From positions 1,142,264-1,206,263 of the forward strand of contig OW818647.1 of assembly GCA_942492855.1 (NCBI GenBank): 64,000 nucleotides of DNA. The letters are read 5' to 3'. Source of the DNA: Armatimonadota bacterium (lineage in GTDB: Bacteria > Armatimonadota > HRBIN16). The notes under the pieces are model-generated. The model saw only the letters and a list, made by a program, of their open reading frames with translations, was not told the DNA's origin and made no database searches. A program made the position numbers and the translations under genes. The stretch's first letter is position 1. The number at the start of each line of letters is the position of its first letter. Positions 5,733 through 13,317 of this stretch are shown here, piece after piece.

Positions 5733-6821
5733 CTACCTCACCAGGATATCAGGCCGGGCGATCGACTGCGTGGCACACATCGGCCAGCCTGCGATGGCAC
5801 TGATCACCTTCGGGCCATCCGAGGTGATGACTACGGTATCTTCGCTCTTGGTACCCGCGATGGAGGGGTTCCAGGCGTAGACCTGCCCTGTCTTGACCTC
5901 CCCGGCTACTGAAAGGCTGCCGCGGAATTCGCGCGCCTTATACCCGGTGGGGCCGCCCTGATGGTGATGATGCCATTCCCCTTCGAAACCCGCCTGCTTG
6001 TAGGCATCGATGCCAGCTTCAAACACCGATGCGATGGGCGTACCGGCTGTGGTGTGCGATATGAAGGCAGCGTCAACCTCCGCCACCGCGTCATGCCTGT
6101 GGCGCAGCTCCGCTGGTAAGGCGCCGAAGTGTACCAGCCGTGTCATGGAGACCACCAGTCCCCACTTACGTGCGCCGGTGACCAGCATCACCAGCTTCTC
6201 AACACGCTTTTCCGACGGGATGGGATGGCGGTATTTCGCGATGCGCTCATCAGAGGCGATCAGGCTGACCTGCGGCACGATCCCATGGTTGAGCAGTTCG
6301 CGGTTGAGCAGTGAAGCGATCTGGTGCTCGCTCATGCCGGGTTTCACGGCCAGGCAGGCGGTGTTCATGCTCTCGGCCGTCATGCGGCCAAGCTGATGGT
6401 AGCGCACGATCTCCTGCCCGCACAGCACCATCCGGAGGGGCATGAGCTGCGGCTCTAGGCTGGTCTTGCCGAACTGCCCTGTGTCGCTACCCCACTCTGC
6501 GCTGCCCACGAATTGGTCTATGGCAGTCGGCAGGGAGGCTTCCCACCAGTTCAGGCTGATCACTGGGCAGTCCAGCTCCTGCAGCTCCTCATCAAGAATG
6601 CGAGGCGCTTCGATGTTTTCGCACATCACCGCGCAGCGATCGGCGGTCACCACAAGATGCGCCACGCCCGCCTCGGTGGCGATGGAGACGTAGCTGCTGC
6701 CTCCGCAGGTGGCCCAGGCGAAGTTGGCCTGCGAGCTGATCACCAGCCCGTCCAGCTTCTGCTGCTCCAGGATGCTGCGCAGTTGCGACAGCTTCGTGTT
6801 GAATTCATGTTTACGGCTCAT
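5733..6821 (-). CDS. M24-family metallopeptidase (creatinase/Xaa-Pro aminopeptidase-like)
   Basis: Creatinase_N-like N-terminus with the pita-bread fold. Metal ligands are visible in the C-terminal half (HxxGH, E...E). Confidence 0.65.
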   Translation of the reverse strand: MSRKHEFNTKLSQLRSILEQQKLDGLVISSQANFAWATCGGSSYVSIATEAGVAHLVVTADRCAVMCENIEAPRILDEELQELDCPVISLNWWEASLPTAIDQFVGSAEWGSDTGQFGKTSLEPQLMPLRMVLCGQEIVRYHQLGRMTAESMNTACLAVKPGMSEHQIASLLNRELLNHGIVPQVSLIASDERIAKYRHPIPSEKRVEKLVMLVTGARKWGLVVSMTRLVHFGALPAELRHRHDAVAEVDAAFISHTTAGTPIASVFEAGIDAYKQAGFEGEWHHHHQGGPTGYKAREFRGSLSVAGEVKTGQVYAWNPSIAGTKSEDTVVITSDGPKVISAIAGWPMCATQSIARPDILVR

Positions 6822-6849
6822 GAGTTACTCCTTTATGGGACTTGAGCTA

Positions 6850-7300
6850 GTATCCGACGGATTCGACGGATCGGACCGATGATTGGTCTCGTCCTGCGAA
6901 CTTGGTTAGTAATTGGTGCCGGCGTAGGGGCCACCCTTGTGGTGGCCCTTGGGCAACCGGTCGGTCGCCCCCGAACAGGCGCCCACAAGGGGCGCCCCGG
7001 CTTACAAGCAACTGCCCGTGCTGACACAGCAGCCCAGGCTGTGACTGATACTGTCGTAGGGGCCACCCTTGTGGTGGCCCTTTTGGAAACGGGCAACCAC
7101 GGGGGGTTGCCCCTACCACAACGGGTCATATATACGGACGCACGTAGGGGCAAGCCCCCGTGCTTGCCCTTGGGCGCCCACAAGGGTGGCCCCTACGACC
7201 AACTACAATCACTCCACTCCCTGAACGCGGAAAACAACCCGGACGTCCAGGCTGTCTGGGTTGATGTCCCGCATAAACCCTTCTTCATCCTGCGGGTTTG
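6850..7300. repeat. Array of at least 4 GTAGGGGC-x-GCCCCTAC palindromic units (e.g. GTAGGGGCCACCCTTGTGGTGGCCC, GGGCAACCACGGGGGGTTGCCCCTAC)
   Basis: Palindromic 26-30-bp units are seen directly. The same family occurs at 13430-13510, 18365-18395, 27540-27660, 37720-37750 and 50280-50370. Confidence 0.65.
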
Positions 7301-7356
7301 CTAGACCCAAAACCGTCCGATCCGTCCAACAACAGCCACTTACCCGAATACCCAGC

Positions 7357-8394
7357 CTAGCCCATCGCCTGGCGGGCGAGTTTGAGGGCTGAGGCGAATA
7401 TCGAGGCGGTGGCGTCTGGCGATGTGGTGTATCCCTGCCCGCCGGTTCCTTGCCGCATGACGGCGATCTCCACGTCGCCCTCTTTCTTCAGCTCCACAAG
7501 CACATCACCGAAGCGCGGGATTTTGGCCTCTTTTTGGGTGTTCTTATCCTTGAGGCTTGTCAGTAGTCCGGCGAAGAGCCCTGAATCGGCCTTAGTCAAC
7601 AGCGGGCGGATGCGATTCACCAACCCAAATGAGGGCTTCGCGATGAGCACACAGTAGGTGTACGGGTATTTGGTGCTCTGCACCGTGTTCATGGTGGTTT
7701 GAACCTGGATGCCGTAGAAGTCCTCGGGTGCTGCCGTCAACTTCACCATCATCTTCACATCCACCGGCACGGAGCCGTTGGCGGTCTGCGCAACCTGGAT
7801 GCTGGGCTGGAAGGTGACATCCTTGATATCAGCCATCATGTCATATAGCGGCATGAGCTGGTTGATTTTCGTGCGCATCTCCACCGGCTCCCAGCTTTTC
7901 ACCACACCACTGATCCAGAGCGGCAGCAGCAGAGTCACCGCATCCATCACGAACAGAGTGCTCAGTGAGCCGCCCGCCATGATGGGCACCATCGGCGAGG
8001 GGTTGAAGTTATCTGAGCCCGAATTCATGAGGTTCGCGGCTGCGAACGCCAGCAGTATGATGATGCCGATGAACATCAAACAACCACCCGCTGAGCTCAG
8101 CGAAAACATACCCGCCGCTTTCTTCACATCGGTGCTTTCGCGCAGCATGGCAAGAAGTCCGTTGAACTCGTTGATGGTCACACTTTTCCATTCGCGGTCA
8201 CGGGTGAACTTGGGCACGTTGGAGCGGCCCTTTAGCATGCCCAGCAGTGCGGCGGCCAGCACCCCCACCCAGCCGATAATCGGCGCGATTGTGAACTGGA
8301 CGATGATGCCCACCACTGCGCATATCACCATCAATGCATATCGTGTCTGGATGGGCATCGAGTTGGCAATGACGAATTCAGGCGATTTGTTCAT
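7357..8394 (-). CDS. Polytopic membrane protein (about 5 N-terminal TM helices plus a soluble C-terminal domain). Function unknown. It is the last gene of the (ACHS)n/rSAM locus.
   Basis: The 345-aa ORF has hydrophobic segments. It lies immediately downstream of the IS-truncated rSAM gene on the same strand. Confidence 0.55.
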   Translation of the reverse strand: MNKSPEFVIANSMPIQTRYALMVICAVVGIIVQFTIAPIIGWVGVLAAALLGMLKGRSNVPKFTRDREWKSVTINEFNGLLAMLRESTDVKKAAGMFSLSSAGGCLMFIGIIILLAFAAANLMNSGSDNFNPSPMVPIMAGGSLSTLFVMDAVTLLLPLWISGVVKSWEPVEMRTKINQLMPLYDMMADIKDVTFQPSIQVAQTANGSVPVDVKMMVKLTAAPEDFYGIQVQTTMNTVQSTKYPYTYCVLIAKPSFGLVNRIRPLLTKADSGLFAGLLTSLKDKNTQKEAKIPRFGDVLVELKKEGDVEIAVMRQGTGGQGYTTSPDATASIFASALKLARQAMG

Positions 8395-8572
8395 GCTTTT
8401 CCCCCCGTTTTTGAAGGCTGGTCAGCTCCTGGTAACCCATCGCCTGCCAGTAGATCGGGCAGGCACCTGTGCAGATATCAAACTGTGCACAGGCTTTACA
8501 GATTTTGTGTGCATAGCGTTTGTCACGCCAATAGCGTGCCTGAACTTTGGCTATTTCATCGCATACAGCCAC
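8378..8572 (-). pseudogene. 3' remnant of the IS-disrupted radical SAM gene. It encodes the SPASM C-terminal motif C-x2-C-x5-C-x3-C (CKACAQFDICTGAC). The first 11 codons are read out of the IS end.
   Basis: The 64-aa ORF contains ARYWRDKRYAHKICKACAQFDICTGACP. The ARYWRD stretch is identical to the last residues (RARYWRD*) of the rSAM ORF 10430..11722. Confidence 0.7.
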
Positions 8573-9234
8573 GCAGGATATTGGTGAATTTCGGAGTTTT
8601 GACGGCTTCGTGTTTTGGAATTTGACATAGGATGTATCGACGCTTGTAGCCTTGACACGACATCCCCATAGTCACGCTCATTCGGCGAGTCAATTACCTC
8701 TTGCCTCATAAACATAGCCAATCGATTAGTCGATAACCTGCCATCAATCGTTCGACGCTGCCACTTAGGCCTGGGCAGCTCCTCATCCTTCACACCAGAA
8801 ATTATCGCAGCGAGATGCATTAAACTATATACCCATACCAGAAACGGAATGACATTGCAGACTGAGTTCTCACACCATACCTGCGGATCACCGATACCAA
8901 AGTAGCTTTTCTCCTCACGAAACGCCACCTCCTGCTCCCACCTCCAGATATATAACTGCACAACCTGTTCAATTGGCATATCTGGATCAGAACACAGGAC
9001 GTAAGCCGGGTTTCGATATAGTATCCTTCCGTTCTTCCTGAGTCTATATGGTGTTGGTGCAACCACGATCAGTCTGAAATCTTGAGCTCCTACCCCTCTC
9101 CATCTCACTCGGTCGACGGTCTTGATCCTCACAACGTGGAATTTGCCAGACGAGTAAACGCATATGTGTTCCCATTCATATGAATCGTCCTGTCGTATCA
9201 GGTCAGGCTTGGGGTACAGGGTCTCCATATACAC
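8551..9234 (-). CDS. DDE transposase, C-terminal ORF (carries the Y(2)R(3)E(6)K motif). It overlaps the N-terminal ORF in another frame, so the transposase is probably frameshift-inactivated.
   Basis: 227-aa ORF. The YIWRWEQEVAFREEK motif is typical of IS4-superfamily transposases. Confidence 0.6.
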   Translation of the reverse strand: MYMETLYPKPDLIRQDDSYEWEHICVYSSGKFHVVRIKTVDRVRWRGVGAQDFRLIVVAPTPYRLRKNGRILYRNPAYVLCSDPDMPIEQVVQLYIWRWEQEVAFREEKSYFGIGDPQVWCENSVCNVIPFLVWVYSLMHLAAIISGVKDEELPRPKWQRRTIDGRLSTNRLAMFMRQEVIDSPNERDYGDVVSRLQASIHPMSNSKTRSRQNSEIHQYPAWLYAMK

Positions 9235-10009
9235 GTCGCTTTCCAGTTTTTGGCTGCTTGTCTGGCAGTTTCGTCAACTTGGCATCACGACGTAACCGTC
9301 CAATGATCGTGGTGTTCTCCGGGATTTTAGTCAACATGGTCTTGTTCATGTAACCTCCATCTACCGTTAACACAAGCCGCCTGTGCCTTGAGTTTGGGTC
9401 CTCATCCATTCTTTCGCGTAGCTCCTTCATGGCGTCAGCCCCCACCTTGGTAACCCGGCAGGCCTTCTGGTCCGTCTTGTATTGGCTGCGCTGCTCGTCA
9501 GTCGCTTTCGGACCTGGCTTCTTGGGAGTAGGTGCGTGCAGCATGTTAATAGGGATAGCAGTGGCCCGGCTATGATATCCGTTGAAGGGGACAAGAGCTG
9601 ATAACTGAACACAACGCTGACCATGTATGAAGTTCGGGCGGTATTTTGGCCCTTGAGGGTCTCTACGTAAGGAGACGCCATGCCCCTTTGTCCCTTTGCG
9701 CGGGATTATCGTATCATCCATCGCGACAACAAACGGCATGTTCTCTGGAGTGAGGCTGATCGCTTGCTGTAAAACGGTGTCCCAGCACTGGGACACCGAG
9801 ATACGGTTTTGTTCAAAGATGCGGTAATACGCTGACCAGTCTTTGTCAGCCTGACCAGCTGTCTGGATGATCCCTGTGATTGTGTGTCTTCCGACGGTTG
9901 CCGTGGCCGCCAGAGCGATCTGCTGGGACTTTTCATAGGTTCGCTGTTGGTTAAACGCATCGCGTGCCAGTTCATAGAGAAGCATAAATGCAGGCAATAC
10001 TTTGCTCAT
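9203..10009 (-). CDS. DDE transposase, N-terminal ORF (DDE_Tnp_1-like; VVAMDDT and LTVDGGY Asp motifs)
   Basis: 268-aa ORF that overlaps the 8551..9234 ORF by 32 nt. Confidence 0.6.
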   Translation of the reverse strand: MSKVLPAFMLLYELARDAFNQQRTYEKSQQIALAATATVGRHTITGIIQTAGQADKDWSAYYRIFEQNRISVSQCWDTVLQQAISLTPENMPFVVAMDDTIIPRKGTKGHGVSLRRDPQGPKYRPNFIHGQRCVQLSALVPFNGYHSRATAIPINMLHAPTPKKPGPKATDEQRSQYKTDQKACRVTKVGADAMKELRERMDEDPNSRHRRLVLTVDGGYMNKTMLTKIPENTTIIGRLRRDAKLTKLPDKQPKTGKRRVYGDPVPQA

Positions 10010-10197
10010 CGCTCTTCATCCTCCGAAATGACAGCATTCGACCTGACCATCATCATGATGTTTTTGTCAATGATCACCCACTCCACGACTTCACCCTTTT
10101 GTAGCTCGATGGCATCAGCGACTGTGGCGGGGAAGTTGACATACCATTGGTGACGGCCTTTGTAGTTGATGTGCTGCACTCTCGTTTTGGCTCCCAT
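10006..10197 (-). CDS. Small AbrB/MazE-like putative DNA-binding protein carried inside the IS, upstream of the transposase
   Basis: The 63-aa ORF contains KGRHQWYVNFPATVADAIELQKGEVVEW, which resembles the looped-hinge-helix motif. It lies within the IS boundaries next to an AT-rich promoter-like stretch at 10200-10330. Confidence 0.3.
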   Translation of the reverse strand: MGAKTRVQHINYKGRHQWYVNFPATVADAIELQKGEVVEWVIIDKNIMMMVRSNAVISEDEER

Positions 10198-10429
10198 ATG
10201 GTTCCCTCCAATCTAGTTATCACTTATGAAATATCATACATTACAATAGATAATCAATAGCTTTATGGATAATATTCTGACGTTTGTGTGATATTTCAAA
10301 GATATGCTGTTACTAATAGAAATAACAGCTGGCGCGCTGGGCATACATCATGGGGTCGGTGTGTTTTCGAGTGGAGTGAAACGGTAGACTACAAGGTCGC
10401 TAGTGTGGAAACATTCAAAAGGCCAAAGC

Positions 10430-11626
10430 TCAGTCACGCCAATAGCGTGCGCGGCGCCCCTCCCACACCCGGTTGAACGGCGTGCGCAGCAGGTTCCCCA
10501 CGCTTTTGGGCAGGCTGGAGCAGGGCAGCACATCGCCGGTGGGCGATACGCTGAGCAGTCCGTCGCACGCGGCGCAGGACTTGCCGCCCAGTTGGGAGGC
10601 CACCGGATTAAACAGGCAGTATGGCGTGGGCGAGTACCACATAAACTCGATACCCTCATCACGAGCCGCCTGCTGAATGCCCGCCATCAGACCAGCCATC
10701 TCGGTGTAGCTGATGGTCACCTCTTCATCAGGCGCGCTGCCGCATGGGATCACCATGTTCATGGAAAGCCGCTTCATGCCGATGCTCTTCACGAAGGAGA
10801 TGAGCTCGGTCAGATGCGCCGAGTTCATGCGGTTCACCGTGGTGTTGGTATGCACATGGAGACCACTCCGCTTCAGCAGCTCCACACCCCGAACCGTGCG
10901 GTCGAATGAACCAGGGAGCTGCGTTAGACGGTCGTGAACCTCCGCATTCGGACCTTCCAGGCTGACCTGCGCGCTGCGTAGACCCGCGGCCTTCAATCCC
11001 GTGACCAGCTCCTCGGTGAGGTTGGTGCCGTTAGTGATGAGGTTCACACGGATACCCAGTTCGGTGGCGTAGGCGGTCAGTTCGACCAGGTCTTTACGTA
11101 GGGTGGGCTCACCGCCGGTCCAACTGACGCTGGGCACTTCGGCGTCCTGCTTAATGATCTGCAGCACCCGTTTGACTTCGTCCGTGCTCATTTCTTTGCA
11201 GTCTGGGAGTTTTTTGCACTGGCAGCCGGCGTAGCAAAAGCGGCAGCTCAGGTTGCAGCGGTATGTGAGTGCGATCTCCGATAGCACCGGCAGTGTGTTG
11301 AAGGGCCTTTGGTAGGGCACCACATCCACCGATATGCGGTCGTGACCCTCACCCAGGCAACCCATGACCATCGCACGGATGTCGCTGAAGAAGTCGCTGA
11401 TGTCCTTCAGCTTGGCATCATCATCCGCCATCTTCGTGCTGCGGCTACTGATCACCTCACGGATCGGCCGCCCTCTCAGCGTCTCCTTGAGCAGCAGCAG
11501 GCCCGTTTTATTGATCTTGTAGGCCTGGTTTGGCAGCAGGATGAGCAGGCTGTCGCGCTCGCGGACGGTCACGTGCGGTTTGATACTCTCCACAAAGCTG
11601 TCGATCCAGTCGATGCGGCTCTCCAT
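10430..11626 (-). CDS. Radical SAM enzyme with an N-terminal PqqD-like RRE and a SPASM domain. It is a RiPP-maturase-like protein. The IS insertion truncates it about 48 codons before its original end.
   Basis: CNLSCRFCY is the CxxxCxxC motif. The N-terminal region (90 aa) HVTVRERDSLLILLPNQAYKINKTGLLLLKETLRGRPIREV looks PqqD-like. Additional Cys clusters are present near the C-terminus. The likely start is MESRIDW at 11626, whose ATG overlaps the upstream stop in TGATG. The track ORF extends to 11722 through the repeat region in a different frame. Confidence 0.8.
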   Translation of the reverse strand: MESRIDWIDSFVESIKPHVTVRERDSLLILLPNQAYKINKTGLLLLKETLRGRPIREVISSRSTKMADDDAKLKDISDFFSDIRAMVMGCLGEGHDRISVDVVPYQRPFNTLPVLSEIALTYRCNLSCRFCYAGCQCKKLPDCKEMSTDEVKRVLQIIKQDAEVPSVSWTGGEPTLRKDLVELTAYATELGIRVNLITNGTNLTEELVTGLKAAGLRSAQVSLEGPNAEVHDRLTQLPGSFDRTVRGVELLKRSGLHVHTNTTVNRMNSAHLTELISFVKSIGMKRLSMNMVIPCGSAPDEEVTISYTEMAGLMAGIQQAARDEGIEFMWYSPTPYCLFNPVASQLGGKSCAACDGLLSVSPTGDVLPCSSLPKSVGNLLRTPFNRVWEGRRARYWRD

Positions 11627-13317
11627 CAGTGCGCGCCTCCGCTGACGCACGCGCTGTGACATGCCGAGTGGCACGCGCTGTGACAGGCACTGTGGCACGC
11701 GGAGTGGCAGGCACTGTGGCAAGCGTCATGACACGCGGTATGCACGTAGCACGCAGAGTGGCAGGCCTGCGAGCTCATAAAGGAGCTGAAGTCCTGGCTC
11801 TCGATCAGTTCATCGCCCTTGATGCCTTGCGCGATTTCATCCGGGCGGGAATCTACATACCGGTTGGTGGTGTGATAATGGGTGGTGCCATACCAGTAGT
11901 GCGCATAATACCGCGGATACCGGCGTTCATGCATCATGAAGCCCTCATCGCGTTGCTCTGGGGCCTCCTCCATTTTCTTGTATTGCTCGGCGATGACCTG
12001 CCGGTACCACTCCTTAGTCGCCTCCAGGTCGCAGTCCCACGCTTTGCGCTGGATTTGGTCCACCATATCCTGGAACATCGCCTCAAAATCGGCCGCCAAT
12101 AACGAGCCATCTCCACGGATGCGGCTGAGAAGCATCTCCTCATACCGGTTATCCGCTGACTGGTCAAGCGGGTAGAGCCGCTCCAGCTTGATAGGCTGCA
12201 CCTGCAGCACTTTCACCAACGCCACCGACTCCATGCGGGAGATCATCGCACCGAGAATGCGCGGCAGGGGCACCTCCAGCAGCATGGCCGCTTCGATCAT
12301 ATCCAGCTCAGCGATTTTGCCAGGGATGCGGTAGCTGGAGACCTCGATTTTCGGAGGAACCCACTCGCCGCGCTCCCAATCCACCTCACTCAGCTCACTT
12401 AACGCCGCCGTGGTGGACTTCATTTTGCGGCTGAGCAGCAGCAGCGAGACCACCACCACCCCAATCAGCAGGCCCCCTCCCAGCATCATGCGTCCCATGT
12501 TCTGCTGTACTCGTGGAATGTCGGGGAAACCCAGCTCATTCGCTACTCCGCCGTTTCCTGAGCCTGTTTGACCAACCAGCGGCTGATCGGACTGGGTTGC
12601 ACTAGAGGTCTGTTTCAACGTAAACAGGCTGGCGTTGATGTAGGTGGAGAGGCGCATGTGATATTGCGGCGGGGGGTTGTTTTTGTGGAAGCGCACCGTC
12701 AGCCAGTTCTTACCGTTGGCCGGTTGACCGTAATAGCTGATGAGATACTCCGAGTTGACATACTTCTCTGTGCGAAACCCAAGCTTCGTCAGCAGTTCTT
12801 GAGATACCGTCTTGCTGGCGGTGCTGATCGGATAGTGCAGATAAACCGTCATATGCTCAGCGGCTTCATCGAACTGGCACGGTGACCAGTTGAAATACAC
12901 CAGTTTCCCAAACTCGCTTTGGGTATACCCCATGTACCCGGCGGACACAAAGTCGGTGGCATAAGGGATGATGTAAGTGACCTCGCCGGAGCTCACAGAG
13001 GCCCCCTTGGCCAGCACCACGTCGAACTTGTTGCCCATATCCGTGATGGAGAGCCCGTATTTCCTGCCTGAGGAGTCGATCGCAGCCGCCTTGCCGTAGT
13101 CGAAGCGCGGGGCGGCGCTGCCAAAGCCCTCCAGGTAGAATCCGTGCAGCTCTCCGCTTAGAACCTTGTAACGAACTTTGTACACCACAATCGCCCGGCC
13201 GTCCTTTGTGGGCGAAACATCCACCTCAACCCACTTCAACACAGCCTCGGTGGCCATCGCACAGGTGGCCAGGATGCACAGACCGATGGCGATCAGCAGC
13301 TTACAGACATTTCTCAC
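11626..13317 (-). CDS. Secreted/membrane-anchored protein (signal peptide, beta-rich N-terminal domain, central TM helix, possibly DUF2207-like). The C-terminus is a Cys/His-rich tandem tetrapeptide repeat: ...ACHSACYVHTACHDACHSACHSACHSACHSACHSACHSACVSGGAH.
   Basis: 563-aa ORF. The signal peptide is MRNVCKLLIAIGLCILATCAMA, the TM segment is MMLGGGLLIGVVVVSLLLLS, and the C-terminal (ACHS)n tail is as shown. Its stop overlaps the rSAM start codon. Confidence 0.65.
   Translation of the reverse strand: MRNVCKLLIAIGLCILATCAMATEAVLKWVEVDVSPTKDGRAIVVYKVRYKVLSGELHGFYLEGFGSAAPRFDYGKAAAIDSSGRKYGLSITDMGNKFDVVLAKGASVSSGEVTYIIPYATDFVSAGYMGYTQSEFGKLVYFNWSPCQFDEAAEHMTVYLHYPISTASKTVSQELLTKLGFRTEKYVNSEYLISYYGQPANGKNWLTVRFHKNNPPPQYHMRLSTYINASLFTLKQTSSATQSDQPLVGQTGSGNGGVANELGFPDIPRVQQNMGRMMLGGGLLIGVVVVSLLLLSRKMKSTTAALSELSEVDWERGEWVPPKIEVSSYRIPGKIAELDMIEAAMLLEVPLPRILGAMISRMESVALVKVLQVQPIKLERLYPLDQSADNRYEEMLLSRIRGDGSLLAADFEAMFQDMVDQIQRKAWDCDLEATKEWYRQVIAEQYKKMEEAPEQRDEGFMMHERRYPRYYAHYWYGTTHYHTTNRYVDSRPDEIAQGIKGDELIESQDFSSFMSSQACHSACYVHTACHDACHSACHSACHSACHSACHSACHSACVSGGAH
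11632..11727 (-). repeat. Imperfect 12-nt tandem repeat (about 8 copies) that encodes the (Ala-Cys-His-Ser)n tail
   Basis: The plus strand reads GAGTGGCACGCG CTGTGACAGGCA CTGTGGCACGCG GAGTGGCAGGCA CTGTGGCAAGCG.... The copies differ mainly at synonymous positions (TGC/TGT, AGC/TCT/TCC/TCG, GCG/GCA/GCC). Confidence 0.8.

What the first reader, a model, noticed from the sequence alone, without database searches (positions are those of the whole stretch)
8522..10450. IS4-superfamily element inserted into the radical SAM maturase gene; it duplicates six codons (ARYWRD) and is probably itself inactivated
The 18-bp sequence GTCACGCCAATAGCGTGC occurs at 8522-8539 and again at 10433-10450. It immediately flanks the imperfect inverted repeats TGAACTTTGGCTATTTC and CAAAAGGCCAAAGCTCA. 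At protein level the rSAM ORF ends ...RARYWRD* just inside the element. The downstream 64-aa ORF resumes ...ARYWRDKRYAHKICKACAQFDICTGACP..., the rest of the SPASM domain. The element carries a DDE transposase with the Y(2)R(3)E(6)K signature, split into two overlapping ORFs, plus a small AbrB-like ORF. So the maturase is truncated in this strain and the element looks decayed. An 18-bp TSD is long for most IS4 members. Only the IS1634/IS1182-like groups give long or variable TSDs.
Basis: seen in the sequence. Interest (0 to 1): 0.6.

Follow-up and report, generated by a model that had tools for sequence, protein, structure and literature searches.

The report
Hairpin-duplicating insertion sequence in rSAM gene
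A 1.9-kb jumping gene has landed inside a radical-SAM enzyme gene, and its unusually long 17-bp flanking duplication is one whole small DNA hairpin; dozens of related elements follow the same rule, which points to a transposase that chooses targets by DNA shape rather than by sequence.

Summary
An 1894-bp insertion sequence (window 8540-10433, genes on the minus strand) interrupts a radical SAM/SPASM gene. Removing it and one repeat copy restores a 445-aa ORF. That ORF is 96% identical, without gaps, to an intact 445-aa orthologue in a syntenic Armatimonadota MAG that has a single copy of the target. The duplication is 17 bp rather than 18, because the extra base belongs to the element's conserved terminus CTnnnnTTTGGC. 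The transposase belongs to the IS701 family by NCBI's curated model, not to IS4 proper, IS1634 or IS1182. It is split by one extra C in a CCC run, which is absent from six close relatives that have an intact 485-aa gene. A conserved 63-aa upstream ORF is only weakly AbrB/MazE-like. The main new result concerns the duplicated sequence, which is a complete stem-loop. In 47 insertions of related elements from several phyla the duplication is 17-34 bp long and spans one hairpin to within 0-1 nt in 42 cases. Documented IS701 members make 4-9-bp duplications. IS1272 also targets hairpins but deletes them. I infer that the element ends join at the 5' feet of a hairpin or cruciform. This is a new variant of a known kind of element.

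The parts
8540..10433 (-). Insertion sequence, 1894 bp, IS701-family clade, with termini CTGAGCTTTGGC (left, at 10433 reading down) and CTGAACTTTGGC (right, at 8540 reading up)
   Evidence: It aligns end to end at 89% identity with 10 metagenome copies and at 94-99% with L018-L023. The terminus motif CTnnnnTTTGGC is shared across the clade. G+C drops inside the element. The element is absent from the syntenic relative L103.
8523..8539 (.). Target-site duplication, copy next to the right end of the IS. On the minus strand it reads GCACGCTATTGGCGTGA, a hairpin with stem CACGC/GCGTG and a 5-nt loop.
   Evidence: Folded as DNA it gives -5.5 kcal/mol, z = -4.3, and 0 of 200 shuffles fold as well.
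10434..10450 (.). Target-site duplication, copy next to the left end of the IS
   Evidence: The relative L103 has a single copy at the empty site, GCACGCTATTGGCGCGA.
10412..10433 (-). Left terminal inverted repeat (IRL), CTGAGCTTTGGCCTTTTGAATG
8540..8561 (+). Right terminal inverted repeat (IRR), CTGAACTTTGGCTATTTCATCG when read inward
10198..10411 (-). AT-rich 5' non-coding region of the IS. It holds a promoter-like site (10299-10271) and a 14-nt inverted repeat (10227-10240 / 10285-10298).
   Evidence: These are consensus matches only, and their count in the scanned region is about two standard deviations above shuffles, which is not decisive.
10006..10197 (-). 63-aa ORF whose stop overlaps the transposase start by 4 nt. 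It is conserved across the clade and is a candidate AbrB/MazE-type (SpoVT-AbrB) DNA-binding protein.
   Evidence: It is present in 102 of 103 related loci and in all 10 contigs. PF04014 gives E = 0.002-0.06 in 6 of 7 members, which is below threshold. Structure prediction and PDB searches were inconclusive.
9203..10009 (-). Transposase N-terminal ORF, 268 aa, with the first two catalytic Asp residues (AMDDT, VDGGY). It ends prematurely at GDPVPQA*.
   Evidence: DDE_5 E = 2e-17. NF049999 gives 130.9 bits over profile positions 18-238.
9211..9214 (.). Frameshift site: GGGG on the plus strand (CCCC in the gene), where six related copies have CCC
   Evidence: alignment A1
8551..9234 (-). Transposase C-terminal ORF in the +1 frame, carrying Y(2)R(3)E(6)K (YIWRWEQEVAFREEK). 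Real coding resumes at about 9213.
   Evidence: NF049999 gives 62.8 bits over profile positions 241-379. The corrected fusion is 89% identical over 100% of its length to the intact 485-aa P0001.
10434..11626 (-). 5' fragment of the radical SAM/SPASM gene (codons 1-398). The third base of the last Asp codon (10433) and the stop TGA (10432-10430) are supplied by the IS end.
8378..8539 (-). 3' fragment of the radical SAM/SPASM gene. It begins with the duplicated ARYWR codons and then encodes the last 47 codons, including the C-terminal SPASM motif CKACAQFDICTGAC.
11626..13317 (-). Context: upstream 563-aa gene with a C-terminal (ACHS)n Cys/His repeat. Its stop overlaps the rSAM start codon (TGATG).
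   Evidence: The gene is syntenic in L103.
7357..8394 (-). Context: downstream 345-aa membrane-protein gene that overlaps the rSAM 3' end by 17 nt. It is now separated from its operon by the IS.

Best explanation
An 1894-bp insertion sequence of an uncharacterised clade of the IS701 family transposed into the 3' part of a radical SAM/SPASM gene of an Armatimonadota-like genome. The clade has a small AbrB/MazE-like ORF followed by a DDE transposase of about 485 aa, and termini CTnnnnTTTGGC. The insertion cuts off the last 47 residues of the enzyme, including the final SPASM cysteine cluster motif, and separates the downstream gene from its operon. The enzyme is therefore almost certainly non-functional in this strain. 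The target was a small palindrome that lies by chance in the coding sequence (G-CACGC-tattg-GCGTG-A), and the whole palindrome was duplicated, giving a 17-bp target-site duplication. This is how the clade behaves in general. Its members insert at short G+C-rich hairpins (REP-like elements and terminator-like stem-loops) of many different sequences. The duplication is the stem-loop plus 0-1 nt on each side, so its length (17-34 bp) is set by the hairpin and not by a fixed stagger. Inferred mechanism: the two 3'-OH ends of the element are joined to opposite strands at the 5' feet of the palindrome. These two positions are far apart in B-DNA but adjacent once the palindrome is folded as a hairpin or cruciform, possibly with protein help. 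Gap repair then copies the stem-loop onto both sides. The copy in the window carries a 1-nt insertion that splits the transposase after its second catalytic Asp, so it is probably not autonomous. What is shown: the insertion, the duplication, the empty site, the family assignment, the frameshift relative to close copies, and the hairpin rule. What is inferred: the cruciform or foot-attack chemistry, any role of the small protein, and loss of enzyme function.
For: Insertion and duplication: the repeat is exact and unique. Excision restores a 445-aa ORF that is 96% identical to P0131 over 445/445 residues with no gaps. In L103 the same three-gene cassette is uninterrupted and the target is present once.

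Boundaries: the element aligns end to end with 10 independent contigs, and all of them have C before TGAAC.

Family: NF049999 gives 214.5, 183.1, 186.6 and 199.0 bits against a cut-off of 170 for intact relatives. The two window halves hit adjacent parts of that profile.

Frameshift: the window has CCCC where L018-L022 and L001 have CCC. An intact 485-aa gene is present in 10 of 10 contigs.

Hairpin rule: L011, on a 113-kb contig, has a 25-bp duplication GCACGCGCGCGTAACGCGCGCGTGA. In the Bryobacterales chromosome OZ252030.1, 37 of 52 copies have duplications of 18-34 bp. All 5 Armatimonadetes MAG copies have 24-31 bp. Two delta-proteobacterial copies have 24 and 26 bp, and L032 has 22 bp. Over the 47 duplications there are 39 distinct sequences with stems of 5-15 bp, and the hairpin reaches to within 0-1 nt of each end in 42 of 47. 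By chance this happens in 0.6% of window 17-mers and 0.14% of Bryobacterales 22-mers. Folding z-scores run from -3.4 to -7.9.

Clade specificity: relatives at 25-28% identity on rhizobial plasmids share the terminus but have no hairpin flanks and no small ORF. Published IS701 duplications are 4, 4-5 or 4-9 bp (PMC2266710, PMC8024623).

Mechanistic precedent: Wan et al. 2017 (PMC5678879, Fig. 13, pathway b) drew exactly this outcome as a theoretical alternative for attack at the 5' feet of a cruciform.
Against: The closest relatives of the window element (P0001 type, 89% identity) were seen only on 2-3-kb short-read contigs. There the left and right flanks are different hairpins. I attribute this to chimeric assembly through a multi-copy repeat, because the same flank pairs with different partners: L001/L006 share a left flank with different right flanks, and L004/L005 share a right flank with different left flanks. 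This was not proven, so for this exact element the window copy is the only verified duplication.

Fifteen of the 52 Bryobacterales copies lack a matched duplication.

The window hairpin has only a 5-bp stem. Stems of 5-8 bp are not expected to extrude as cruciforms on their own, so the structural step needs a helper or transiently single-stranded DNA.

Nothing here tests catalysis.

The frameshift lies in a homopolymer and could be an assembly error.
Confidence: 0.85

Rival explanations
1. The long duplication is a fixed or loosely variable stagger typical of an IS1634- or IS1182-like element, and its palindromic nature is coincidence.
For: Weak hits to the IS1634 model (18-27 bits) and to IS4 models appear. 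Taken alone, a 5-bp stem occurs by chance in 1.8% of window 17-mers.
Against: The IS1634 and IS4 models score far below their cut-offs of 100-250, and no IS1182 model is listed, while NF049999 (IS701) is passed. In 47 insertions the duplication length follows the hairpin length from 17 to 34 bp, and the hairpin spans the duplication in 42 of 47.
Confidence: 0.03
2. The transposase is intact and the apparent frameshift is a homopolymer error of the assembly, so this copy is an active element.
For: The only lesion is one extra base in a run of C. The source appears to be a single 5.3-Mb contig, which suggests a long-read assembly, and such assemblies are prone to homopolymer indels. The rest of both ORFs is 89% identical to P0001 with no other disruption.
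Against: The window holds many long uninterrupted ORFs of 600-950 aa, so indel errors are not rampant. A second copy in the same genome is truncated in the same frame by what looks like a different change, a 2-nt deletion. That change is not a homopolymer error (inferred from protein sequence only).
Confidence: 0.2
3. The frameshifted copy still makes some full-length transposase by +1 ribosomal slippage on CCC-C. The P-site tRNA-Pro would re-pair one base downstream, and this restores exactly the ...VPKPDLIRQ... frame.
For: The sequence GTA CCC CAA G allows perfect re-pairing of tRNA-Pro in the +1 frame, and the shifted frame is the correct one. CCC-C is a known shift-prone site (established knowledge).
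Against: Close relatives have no frameshift, so it is not a conserved programmed signal. No stimulatory element was seen. The second copy (GDPTQA*) would not offer the same slippery site.
Confidence: 0.07
4. Palindromes are recognised as hairpins on transiently single-stranded DNA, at replication forks or in transcription bubbles, and not as cruciforms in supercoiled duplex DNA. An alternative version is that the small AbrB-like protein melts and presents them.
For: Stems of 5-8 bp are too short for spontaneous cruciform extrusion (established knowledge). Many targets look like terminators or REP elements in transcribed intergenic DNA. The small ORF is found with the hairpin-targeting clade and is missing from short-duplication relatives.
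Against: A duplication requires joining to both strands at staggered positions. That is easier to picture on a four-way junction than on a single-stranded hairpin, where attack at both feet of one strand would delete the hairpin, as in IS1272. No data here discriminate between the two versions.
Confidence: 0.25

Closest known systems
IS701 family, classical members (IS701; ISGka1/ISGka2; the rhizobial and Microvirga plasmid elements seen in L105 and L106)
   Same: The DDE transposase has Pfam DDE_5 and passes NCBI's curated IS701 model NF049999. Terminal inverted repeats have the same style (CTCGACTTTG... in L105/L106 against CTnnnnTTTGGC here). The size is similar, at 1.5-1.9 kb.
   Different: Classical members have a single ORF and make duplications of 4-5 bp, or 4-9 bp for ISGka1/2 (PMC2266710, PMC8024623). 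Most lack the Tyr of YREK. The window element has a complete Y(2)R(3)E(6)K motif, a second conserved small ORF, and hairpin-spanning duplications of 17-34 bp.
IS1272 / TnSha1 (IS1182 family) of staphylococci
   Same: Both target stem-loop-forming inverted repeats of varied sequence and size, often terminators and occasionally inside genes. Both have been explained by cruciform models (PMC5678879, PMC4923244).
   Different: IS1272 removes the stem-loop and leaves no duplication, which implies attack at the 3' feet or blunt cuts. Here the stem-loop is duplicated. The transposase families differ: no IS1182 model appears among the NCBIfam matches listed.
REP-targeting insertion sequences (IS1397/ISKpn1 of IS3; IS621, ISPpu9/10 and ISPa11 of IS110; ISRm22)
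   Same: Both prefer repetitive extragenic palindromes. Many Bryobacterales copies sit at one REP-like family, GCGYGGAC-N4-GTCCRCGC.
   Different: Those elements break the REP at a fixed internal position and make direct repeats of 0-6 bp, and they show sequence specificity (PMC1525189). Here the hairpin stays whole on both sides, and 39 different sequences are used.
IS1634/IS1549-type elements with long, variable duplications
   Same: They are IS4-related DDE transposases whose duplications can be much longer than 10 bp and vary between copies.
   Different: I know of no hairpin rule for them. The curated IS1634 model scores 18-27 bits against a cut-off of 100.
Cas1-Cas2 spacer integration into CRISPR repeats (an analogy from established knowledge, not homology)
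   Same: Two staggered transesterifications at the two borders of a repeat that is often palindromic, followed by gap repair, duplicate the whole repeat.
   Different: The enzyme is unrelated and the leader-repeat site is sequence-defined. It is not a transposon end-joining reaction.

Membership tests
IS701 family | Transposase matches a curated IS701 family model above its cut-off | tested here: met
   NF049999 (cut-off 170): P0001 scores 214.5, P0005 183.1, the Bryobacterales copy 186.6 and the Armatimonadetes copy 199.0. The window halves score 130.9 and 62.8 on adjacent profile segments. Each half is below the cut-off only because the gene is split.
IS701 family | Target-site duplication of 4 bp (4-5 bp; up to 9 bp in ISGka1/2) | tested here: not met
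   17 bp here and 17-34 bp in 47 related insertions. Literature values are from PMC2266710 and PMC8024623.
IS701 family | Single transposase ORF between terminal inverted repeats | tested here: not met
   Inverted repeats are present. However, a second conserved 63-66-aa ORF precedes the transposase in 102 of 103 loci.
IS701 family | Variant YREK motif (the Tyr is absent in most members, per PMC2266710) | tested here: not met
   A complete Y(2)R(3)E(6)K is present in YIWRWEQEVAFREEK. Four of 27 classical members also keep the Tyr, so this feature is not exclusive.
IS4 family (sensu stricto) | Match to curated IS4 models; duplications of about 8-13 bp | tested here: not met
   The IS4 models give 22-40 bits against cut-offs of 115-250. 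The duplication is 17 bp and is defined by a hairpin.
IS1634 family | Match to the curated IS1634 model | tested here: not met
   NF033559 gives 18.3-26.8 bits against a cut-off of 100.
IS1182 family (IS1272-like) | Match to an IS1182-type transposase model; hairpin target with deletion or a variable duplication | tested here: not met
   No IS1182 model appears among the NCBIfam matches listed at E <= 0.01 or 1e-5. Hairpins are targeted, but they are duplicated rather than deleted.
Radical SAM / SPASM enzymes | Radical_SAM core with CxxxCxxC, plus a C-terminal SPASM iron-sulfur domain | tested here: met
   For the restored ORF, PF04055 gives 108 bits and PF13186 gives 37.8 bits, both above their cut-offs. 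CNLSCRFC is present. No equivalog-level family is reached: the best is TIGR04545 at 174.6 bits against a cut-off of 500. The substrate and any 'maturase' role are therefore not established.
SpoVT/AbrB (MazE_antitoxin, PF04014) DNA-binding domain | Match to PF04014 above the gathering score, or a swapped-hairpin beta-barrel fold | tested here: inconclusive
   The scores are 14.8 bits (window) and 13.9-18.6 bits (relatives) against a cut-off of 24.7, always over the same profile segment 12-45, in 6 of 7 proteins. The AlphaFold2 single-sequence model has pLDDT 65 and Foldseek found no match at E <= 0.001. The best PDB profile hit is 7xi6 C56 at E = 0.31.

The most novel reading that the evidence does not exclude
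The conserved small AbrB/MazE-like protein is a structure-specific targeting subunit. It would bind or stabilise folded palindromes (hairpin or cruciform feet) and deliver the IS701-type transposase to them. This would turn a 4-bp-duplication family into one that reads DNA shape, uses terminators and REP elements as safe landing sites, and regenerates them on both sides. It would be a two-protein, structure-guided target-selection system in a minimal insertion sequence.
Probability: 0.3. Interest if true: 0.75.

Novelty: new variant of a known kind. Interest (0 to 1): 0.6.

Why it matters
For this genome, the result shows that the rSAM/SPASM gene of a conserved three-gene cassette is disrupted, so the cassette is probably inactive in this strain. 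The cassette consists of a protein with a Cys/His repeat, the rSAM enzyme and a membrane protein.

At least 281 loci were found in one-genome-per-species bacterial collections, and one Bryobacterales chromosome carries more than 50 copies. The target of this clade is any small DNA hairpin, and its duplication equals the hairpin.

This has three consequences. First, it supplies natural examples of the 'whole stem-loop duplication' outcome that had only been drawn as a theoretical pathway. Second, it gives a clean system for asking how a DDE transposase senses DNA structure. Third, it matters for annotation. IS-finding tools that expect short fixed duplications, or that extend inverted repeats into the flanking palindromes, will mis-call the ends. 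My own inverted-repeat finder did exactly this.

Duplicating terminators and REP elements instead of destroying them may also explain how such elements reach high copy number at low cost to the host.

Tried and rejected
- Scanning genome contigs with P0001 found no close relative, so the source genome is not in that collection.
- A 38-sequence alignment was too diverse for the locus search. A 10-sequence alignment worked.
- The second copy in the source genome (P0002) could not be retrieved as DNA.
- Ten metagenome contigs of the closest relative gave no duplication. The flanks are hairpins but differ between left and right, and the same flank recurs with different partners. I treat these contigs as chimeric through the repeat and did not use them for the statistics.
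- A generic terminal-inverted-repeat finder failed because the flanking hairpins extend the apparent inverted repeat. It was replaced by anchoring on CTnnnnTTTGGC.
- For the small ORF, Pfam was below threshold. The single-sequence AlphaFold2 model had low confidence and Foldseek found nothing. The PDB profile search was not significant. The homologue search returned only its own cluster.
- Rfam found nothing in or around the element. The promoter and terminator scan was not informative.
- No other copy or fragment of the IS lies in the 64-kb window.
- Literature searches for IS701 combined with palindromic or hairpin duplications found no description.
- The plasmid collection holds only relatives at 31% identity or less, with short duplications.
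- I considered a programmed frameshift and rejected it as the main reading, because close relatives have no shift.

Full report
**1. The observation**

The 18-mer GTCACGCCAATAGCGTGC is present exactly twice in the window, at 8522-8539 and 10433-10450. No match occurred in 100 shuffles, even with two mismatches allowed. Directly inside the two copies lie imperfect inverted repeats, CTGAACTTTGGCTATTT at 8540-8556 and CTGAGCTTTGGCCTTTT at 10433-10417 on the minus strand. These are the only two matches in the window, against 0.02 expected. G+C drops from about 0.60 to 0.41-0.54 between them. Deleting 8540-10450 joins the 430-aa and 64-aa minus-strand ORFs into one ORF. From its ATG this ORF is 445 aa long and carries Radical_SAM (108 bits) and SPASM (37.8 bits) domains. 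The truncated product ends at ...RARYWRD. The IS end supplies the stop codon and the third base of the last Asp codon.

**2. Independent proof of insertion**

The restored protein has an intact 445-aa relative, P0131, named 'radical SAM protein [Armatimonadota bacterium]' by NCBI. The two share 429 of 445 identical residues with no gaps. The contig encoding P0131 (L103, GCA_054606775.1) has the same three genes in the same order and with the same overlaps, encoding proteins of 563, 445 and 345 aa.

At the DNA level the window aligns to L103 on both sides of the element. The two alignments overlap by 18 nt in L103. L103 holds a single copy of the target, GCACGCTATTGGCGCGA. This is a genuine empty site. 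The window therefore comes from an Armatimonadota-like genome in which this gene was hit. That origin is an inference from 96% protein identity and 86-89% DNA identity.

The insertion removes the last 47 residues, KRYAHKICKACAQFDICTGACP..., which include the C-terminal SPASM cysteine motif. Loss of function is inferred and was not tested.

**3. The element**

It encodes, on the minus strand:
- a 63-aa ORF (10006-10197), whose stop overlaps the transposase start by 4 nt;
- a transposase split into 268 aa (9203-10009) and 227 aa (8551-9234).

The two halves hit adjacent parts (positions 18-238 and 241-379) of NCBI's curated model NF049999, 'IS701 family transposase'. The N-terminal half also hits Pfam DDE_5.

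A frameshift-corrected fusion finds P0001, 485 aa, at 89% identity over its full length. Ten contigs encoding P0001 carry the same 63-aa ORF followed by a 485-aa gene, and they align with the window element from first base to last. All of them have C before TGAAC and end in GTTCAG. The element is therefore 1894 bp (8540-10433) and the duplication is 17 bp. The 18th base is the first base of the IS.

Intact relatives pass the NF049999 cut-off, at 183-214 bits against 170. The IS4 and IS1634 models stay far below theirs, and no IS1182 model appears among the listed matches. No other copy lies in the window. The identical N-terminal ORF (P0121) and a 96%-identical 267-aa version (P0002) are both recorded on one 5,316,669-bp NCBI contig, so the source genome has at least two copies.

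**4. Is the copy dead?**

Alignment with six related copies shows one difference that matters: ACCCCAAG in the window against ACCCAAG in all the others. Three of these copies are 98-99% identical to the window element. The extra base lies in GGGG at 9211-9214 on the plus strand. It truncates the protein after the second catalytic Asp and before the Glu of the YREK region.

The copy is thus probably non-autonomous, while the lineage itself is alive. There are three caveats:
- The lesion is a homopolymer indel and the source looks like a long-read assembly. Against this, the window is full of long intact ORFs.
- CCC-C is a classic +1 slippery site, and slippage there would restore the correct frame.
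- The second genomic copy ends at GDPTQA*, which is what a 2-nt deletion of the intact sequence would give. That would be an apparently independent frameshift into the same frame within 8 nt. I cannot explain this.

**5. Why 17 bp?**

The duplicated sequence is itself a hairpin, G-CACGC-tattg-GCGTG-A. Folded as DNA it gives -5.5 kcal/mol, z = -4.3, and 0 of 200 shuffles fold as well. Only 0.6% of window 17-mers hold a stem of at least 5 bp that spans them. The relative's empty site has CGC where the window has CGT, a synonymous difference, and folds no better than shuffles (z = -0.5). The better hairpin is therefore specific to the lineage that was hit.

In the metagenome contigs every flank of the element is a short G+C-rich hairpin abutting the end. 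A relative at 41% identity on a 113-kb contig (L011) has termini CTTGAGTTTGGC...GCCAAACTCAAG and a perfect 25-bp duplication, G-CACGCGCGCG-taa-CGCGCGCGTG-A.

A locus search with a family alignment found at least 281 relatives in species-representative genomes. More than 50 of them are copies at over 99% identity in one 8.55-Mb Bryobacterales chromosome. I anchored on the shared terminus CTnnnnTTTGGC. The results were as follows:
- 37 of 52 Bryobacterales copies have duplications of 18-34 bp, with a mode of 22 bp.
- All 5 copies in an Armatimonadetes MAG have 24-31 bp.
- Two delta-proteobacterial copies have 24 and 26 bp.
- L032 has 22 bp.

Over 47 duplications, including the window, there are 39 different sequences. 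Stems are 5-15 bp and the loop is usually 4 nt. The stem-loop reaches to within 0-1 nt of each end of the duplication in 42 of 47. Such spanning hairpins occur in 0.14% of random 22-mers from the same flanks. Length follows the hairpin, so this is not a fixed stagger.

The 15 Bryobacterales copies without a matched duplication still have a hairpin on each side. Some swap hairpins reciprocally with other copies (L052/L059, L053/L085). Some have the right hairpin as the exact reverse complement of the left (L065, L067, L071). Several sit in IS-hairpin-IS arrays. Recombination among copies located in a multi-copy REP family would produce this pattern, but I did not test it. The REP-like motif GCGYGGAC-N4-GTCCRCGC occurs 45 times in these loci, 38 of them abutting an IS end.

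**6. Mechanism**

Shown: the insertion leaves one complete copy of the target stem-loop on each side. Targets share structure and not sequence. The joints lie 0-1 nt outside the stem.

Inferred: palindromy without sequence conservation can only be read through intrastrand pairing. The transposase, or a partner, must therefore act on a folded palindrome. If the two 3'-OH ends are joined to opposite strands at the 5' feet, each arm remains attached to one flank as a single-stranded hairpin. Gap repair then duplicates the whole palindrome.

This is precisely 'pathway b' of the scheme drawn for IS1272 by Wan et al. (PMC5678879, Fig. 13). That paper and Furi et al. (PMC4923244) found that IS1272 itself deletes the hairpin and makes no duplication.

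The weak point is that stems of 5-8 bp should not extrude spontaneously. Protein-assisted folding, or strands exposed by transcription or replication, are alternatives. A plausible benefit is that terminators and REP elements are neutral landing sites and are regenerated on both sides. The window case is the rare costly hit on a hairpin inside a gene.

**7. The small ORF**

It is present in 102 of 103 related loci, always just upstream of the transposase, and it has invariant residues. Six of seven members give sub-threshold PF04014 (MazE/SpoVT-AbrB) matches over the same profile segment, at E = 0.002-0.06. Structure prediction and PDB searches were inconclusive.

Distant relatives on rhizobial and Microvirga plasmids (25-28% identity) share the terminus (CTCGACTTTG...). 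They lack this ORF, have no flanking hairpins, and show short CTTAG/CTCAG-type flanks of the classical IS701 kind. The small ORF thus occurs together with hairpin targeting. That is a lead for its function, not evidence.

**8. Comparison with what is known**

By its transposase the element is a member of the IS701 family. It fails three descriptive features of that family:
- a 4-5-bp duplication (PMC2266710; 4-9 bp in PMC8024623);
- a single ORF;
- a usually incomplete YREK motif.

It behaves most like IS1272 (IS1182 family) in choosing hairpins, but with the opposite outcome. It differs from REP-targeting IS3, IS110 and ISRm22 elements, which break the REP at a fixed point and make repeats of 0-6 bp (PMC1525189). 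Eight full-text searches found no description of hairpin-spanning duplications for IS701-like elements. ISfinder and TnPedia could not be consulted, so prior curation cannot be excluded.

**9. Verdict**

As an event, an IS insertion in a gene is ordinary. The added value is the explanation of the odd duplication and the recognition of a widespread clade with structure-directed targeting. I rate it a new variant of a known kind, with moderate-to-high interest for specialists in mobile DNA.

Noticed in passing
window 11626-13317 (minus strand), with 7357-8394 and the rSAM gene: The gene upstream of the rSAM enzyme encodes a 563-aa protein with an N-terminal signal-like segment. Its C-terminus is [36 protein letters not shown], conserved in the relative L103. 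Its stop overlaps the rSAM start (TGATG), and a 345-aa membrane-protein gene overlaps the rSAM 3' end. Neither neighbour matches any Pfam or NCBIfam model. The Cys/His repeat looks like a candidate substrate for the SPASM enzyme. The rSAM protein has thousands of homologues in Armatimonadota, Abditibacteriota, Planctomycetota and other phyla.
   Followed up: partly
window 6900-7200: An intergenic array holds about six REP-like hairpins of the type GTAGGGGCCACC-CTTG-TGGTGGCCC. The same style of hairpin abuts the IS in a JGI contig (L104: gtagggatgacc-cttg-tggtcatcc|CTGAAC). These are probably the natural targets of the element, and they are unoccupied here.
   Followed up: partly
source genome, outside the window (proteins P0002 and P0121): A second copy of the IS on the same 5.3-Mb contig has its transposase truncated at the same stop and in the same frame (GDPTQA*). 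The cause looks like an independent 2-nt deletion rather than the window's 1-nt insertion. That makes two frameshifts within 8 nt. The cause could be a hotspot, selection for a truncated N-terminal product, or systematic assembly error.
   Followed up: partly
L037-L097 (Bryobacterales chromosome OZ252030.1), e.g. L050, L052, L059, L065, L067, L071: Tandem IS-hairpin-IS arrays are present. Pairs of copies have reciprocally exchanged flanking hairpins. In four copies the right hairpin is the reverse complement of the left, with the loop flipped. This is consistent with recombination or inversion between copies sitting in a multi-copy REP family, but it was not tested.
   Followed up: partly
window 10434-10450 compared with L103 around 6177-6194: A synonymous Arg codon difference (CGT in the window, CGC in the relative) turns a 3-bp stem into a 5-bp stem at the target. 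The hairpin that attracted the IS is therefore lineage-specific.
   Followed up: yes
L103 7431-8804 compared with window about 6830-7357: The relative carries a 457-aa SLFN_AlbA_2/HATPase_c_4/HTH_24 gene directly after the 345-aa gene. The window has the REP-like hairpin array at that position instead, and the two sequences do not align there.
   Followed up: no
L105 (S. meliloti GR4 pRmeGR4b) and L106 (Microvirga ossetica plasmid): Distant relatives of the transposase (25-28% identity) in cultured alphaproteobacteria keep a similar terminus (CTCGACTTTG...). They have no small ORF and no flanking hairpins, which marks the boundary of the hairpin-targeting clade.
   Followed up: partly
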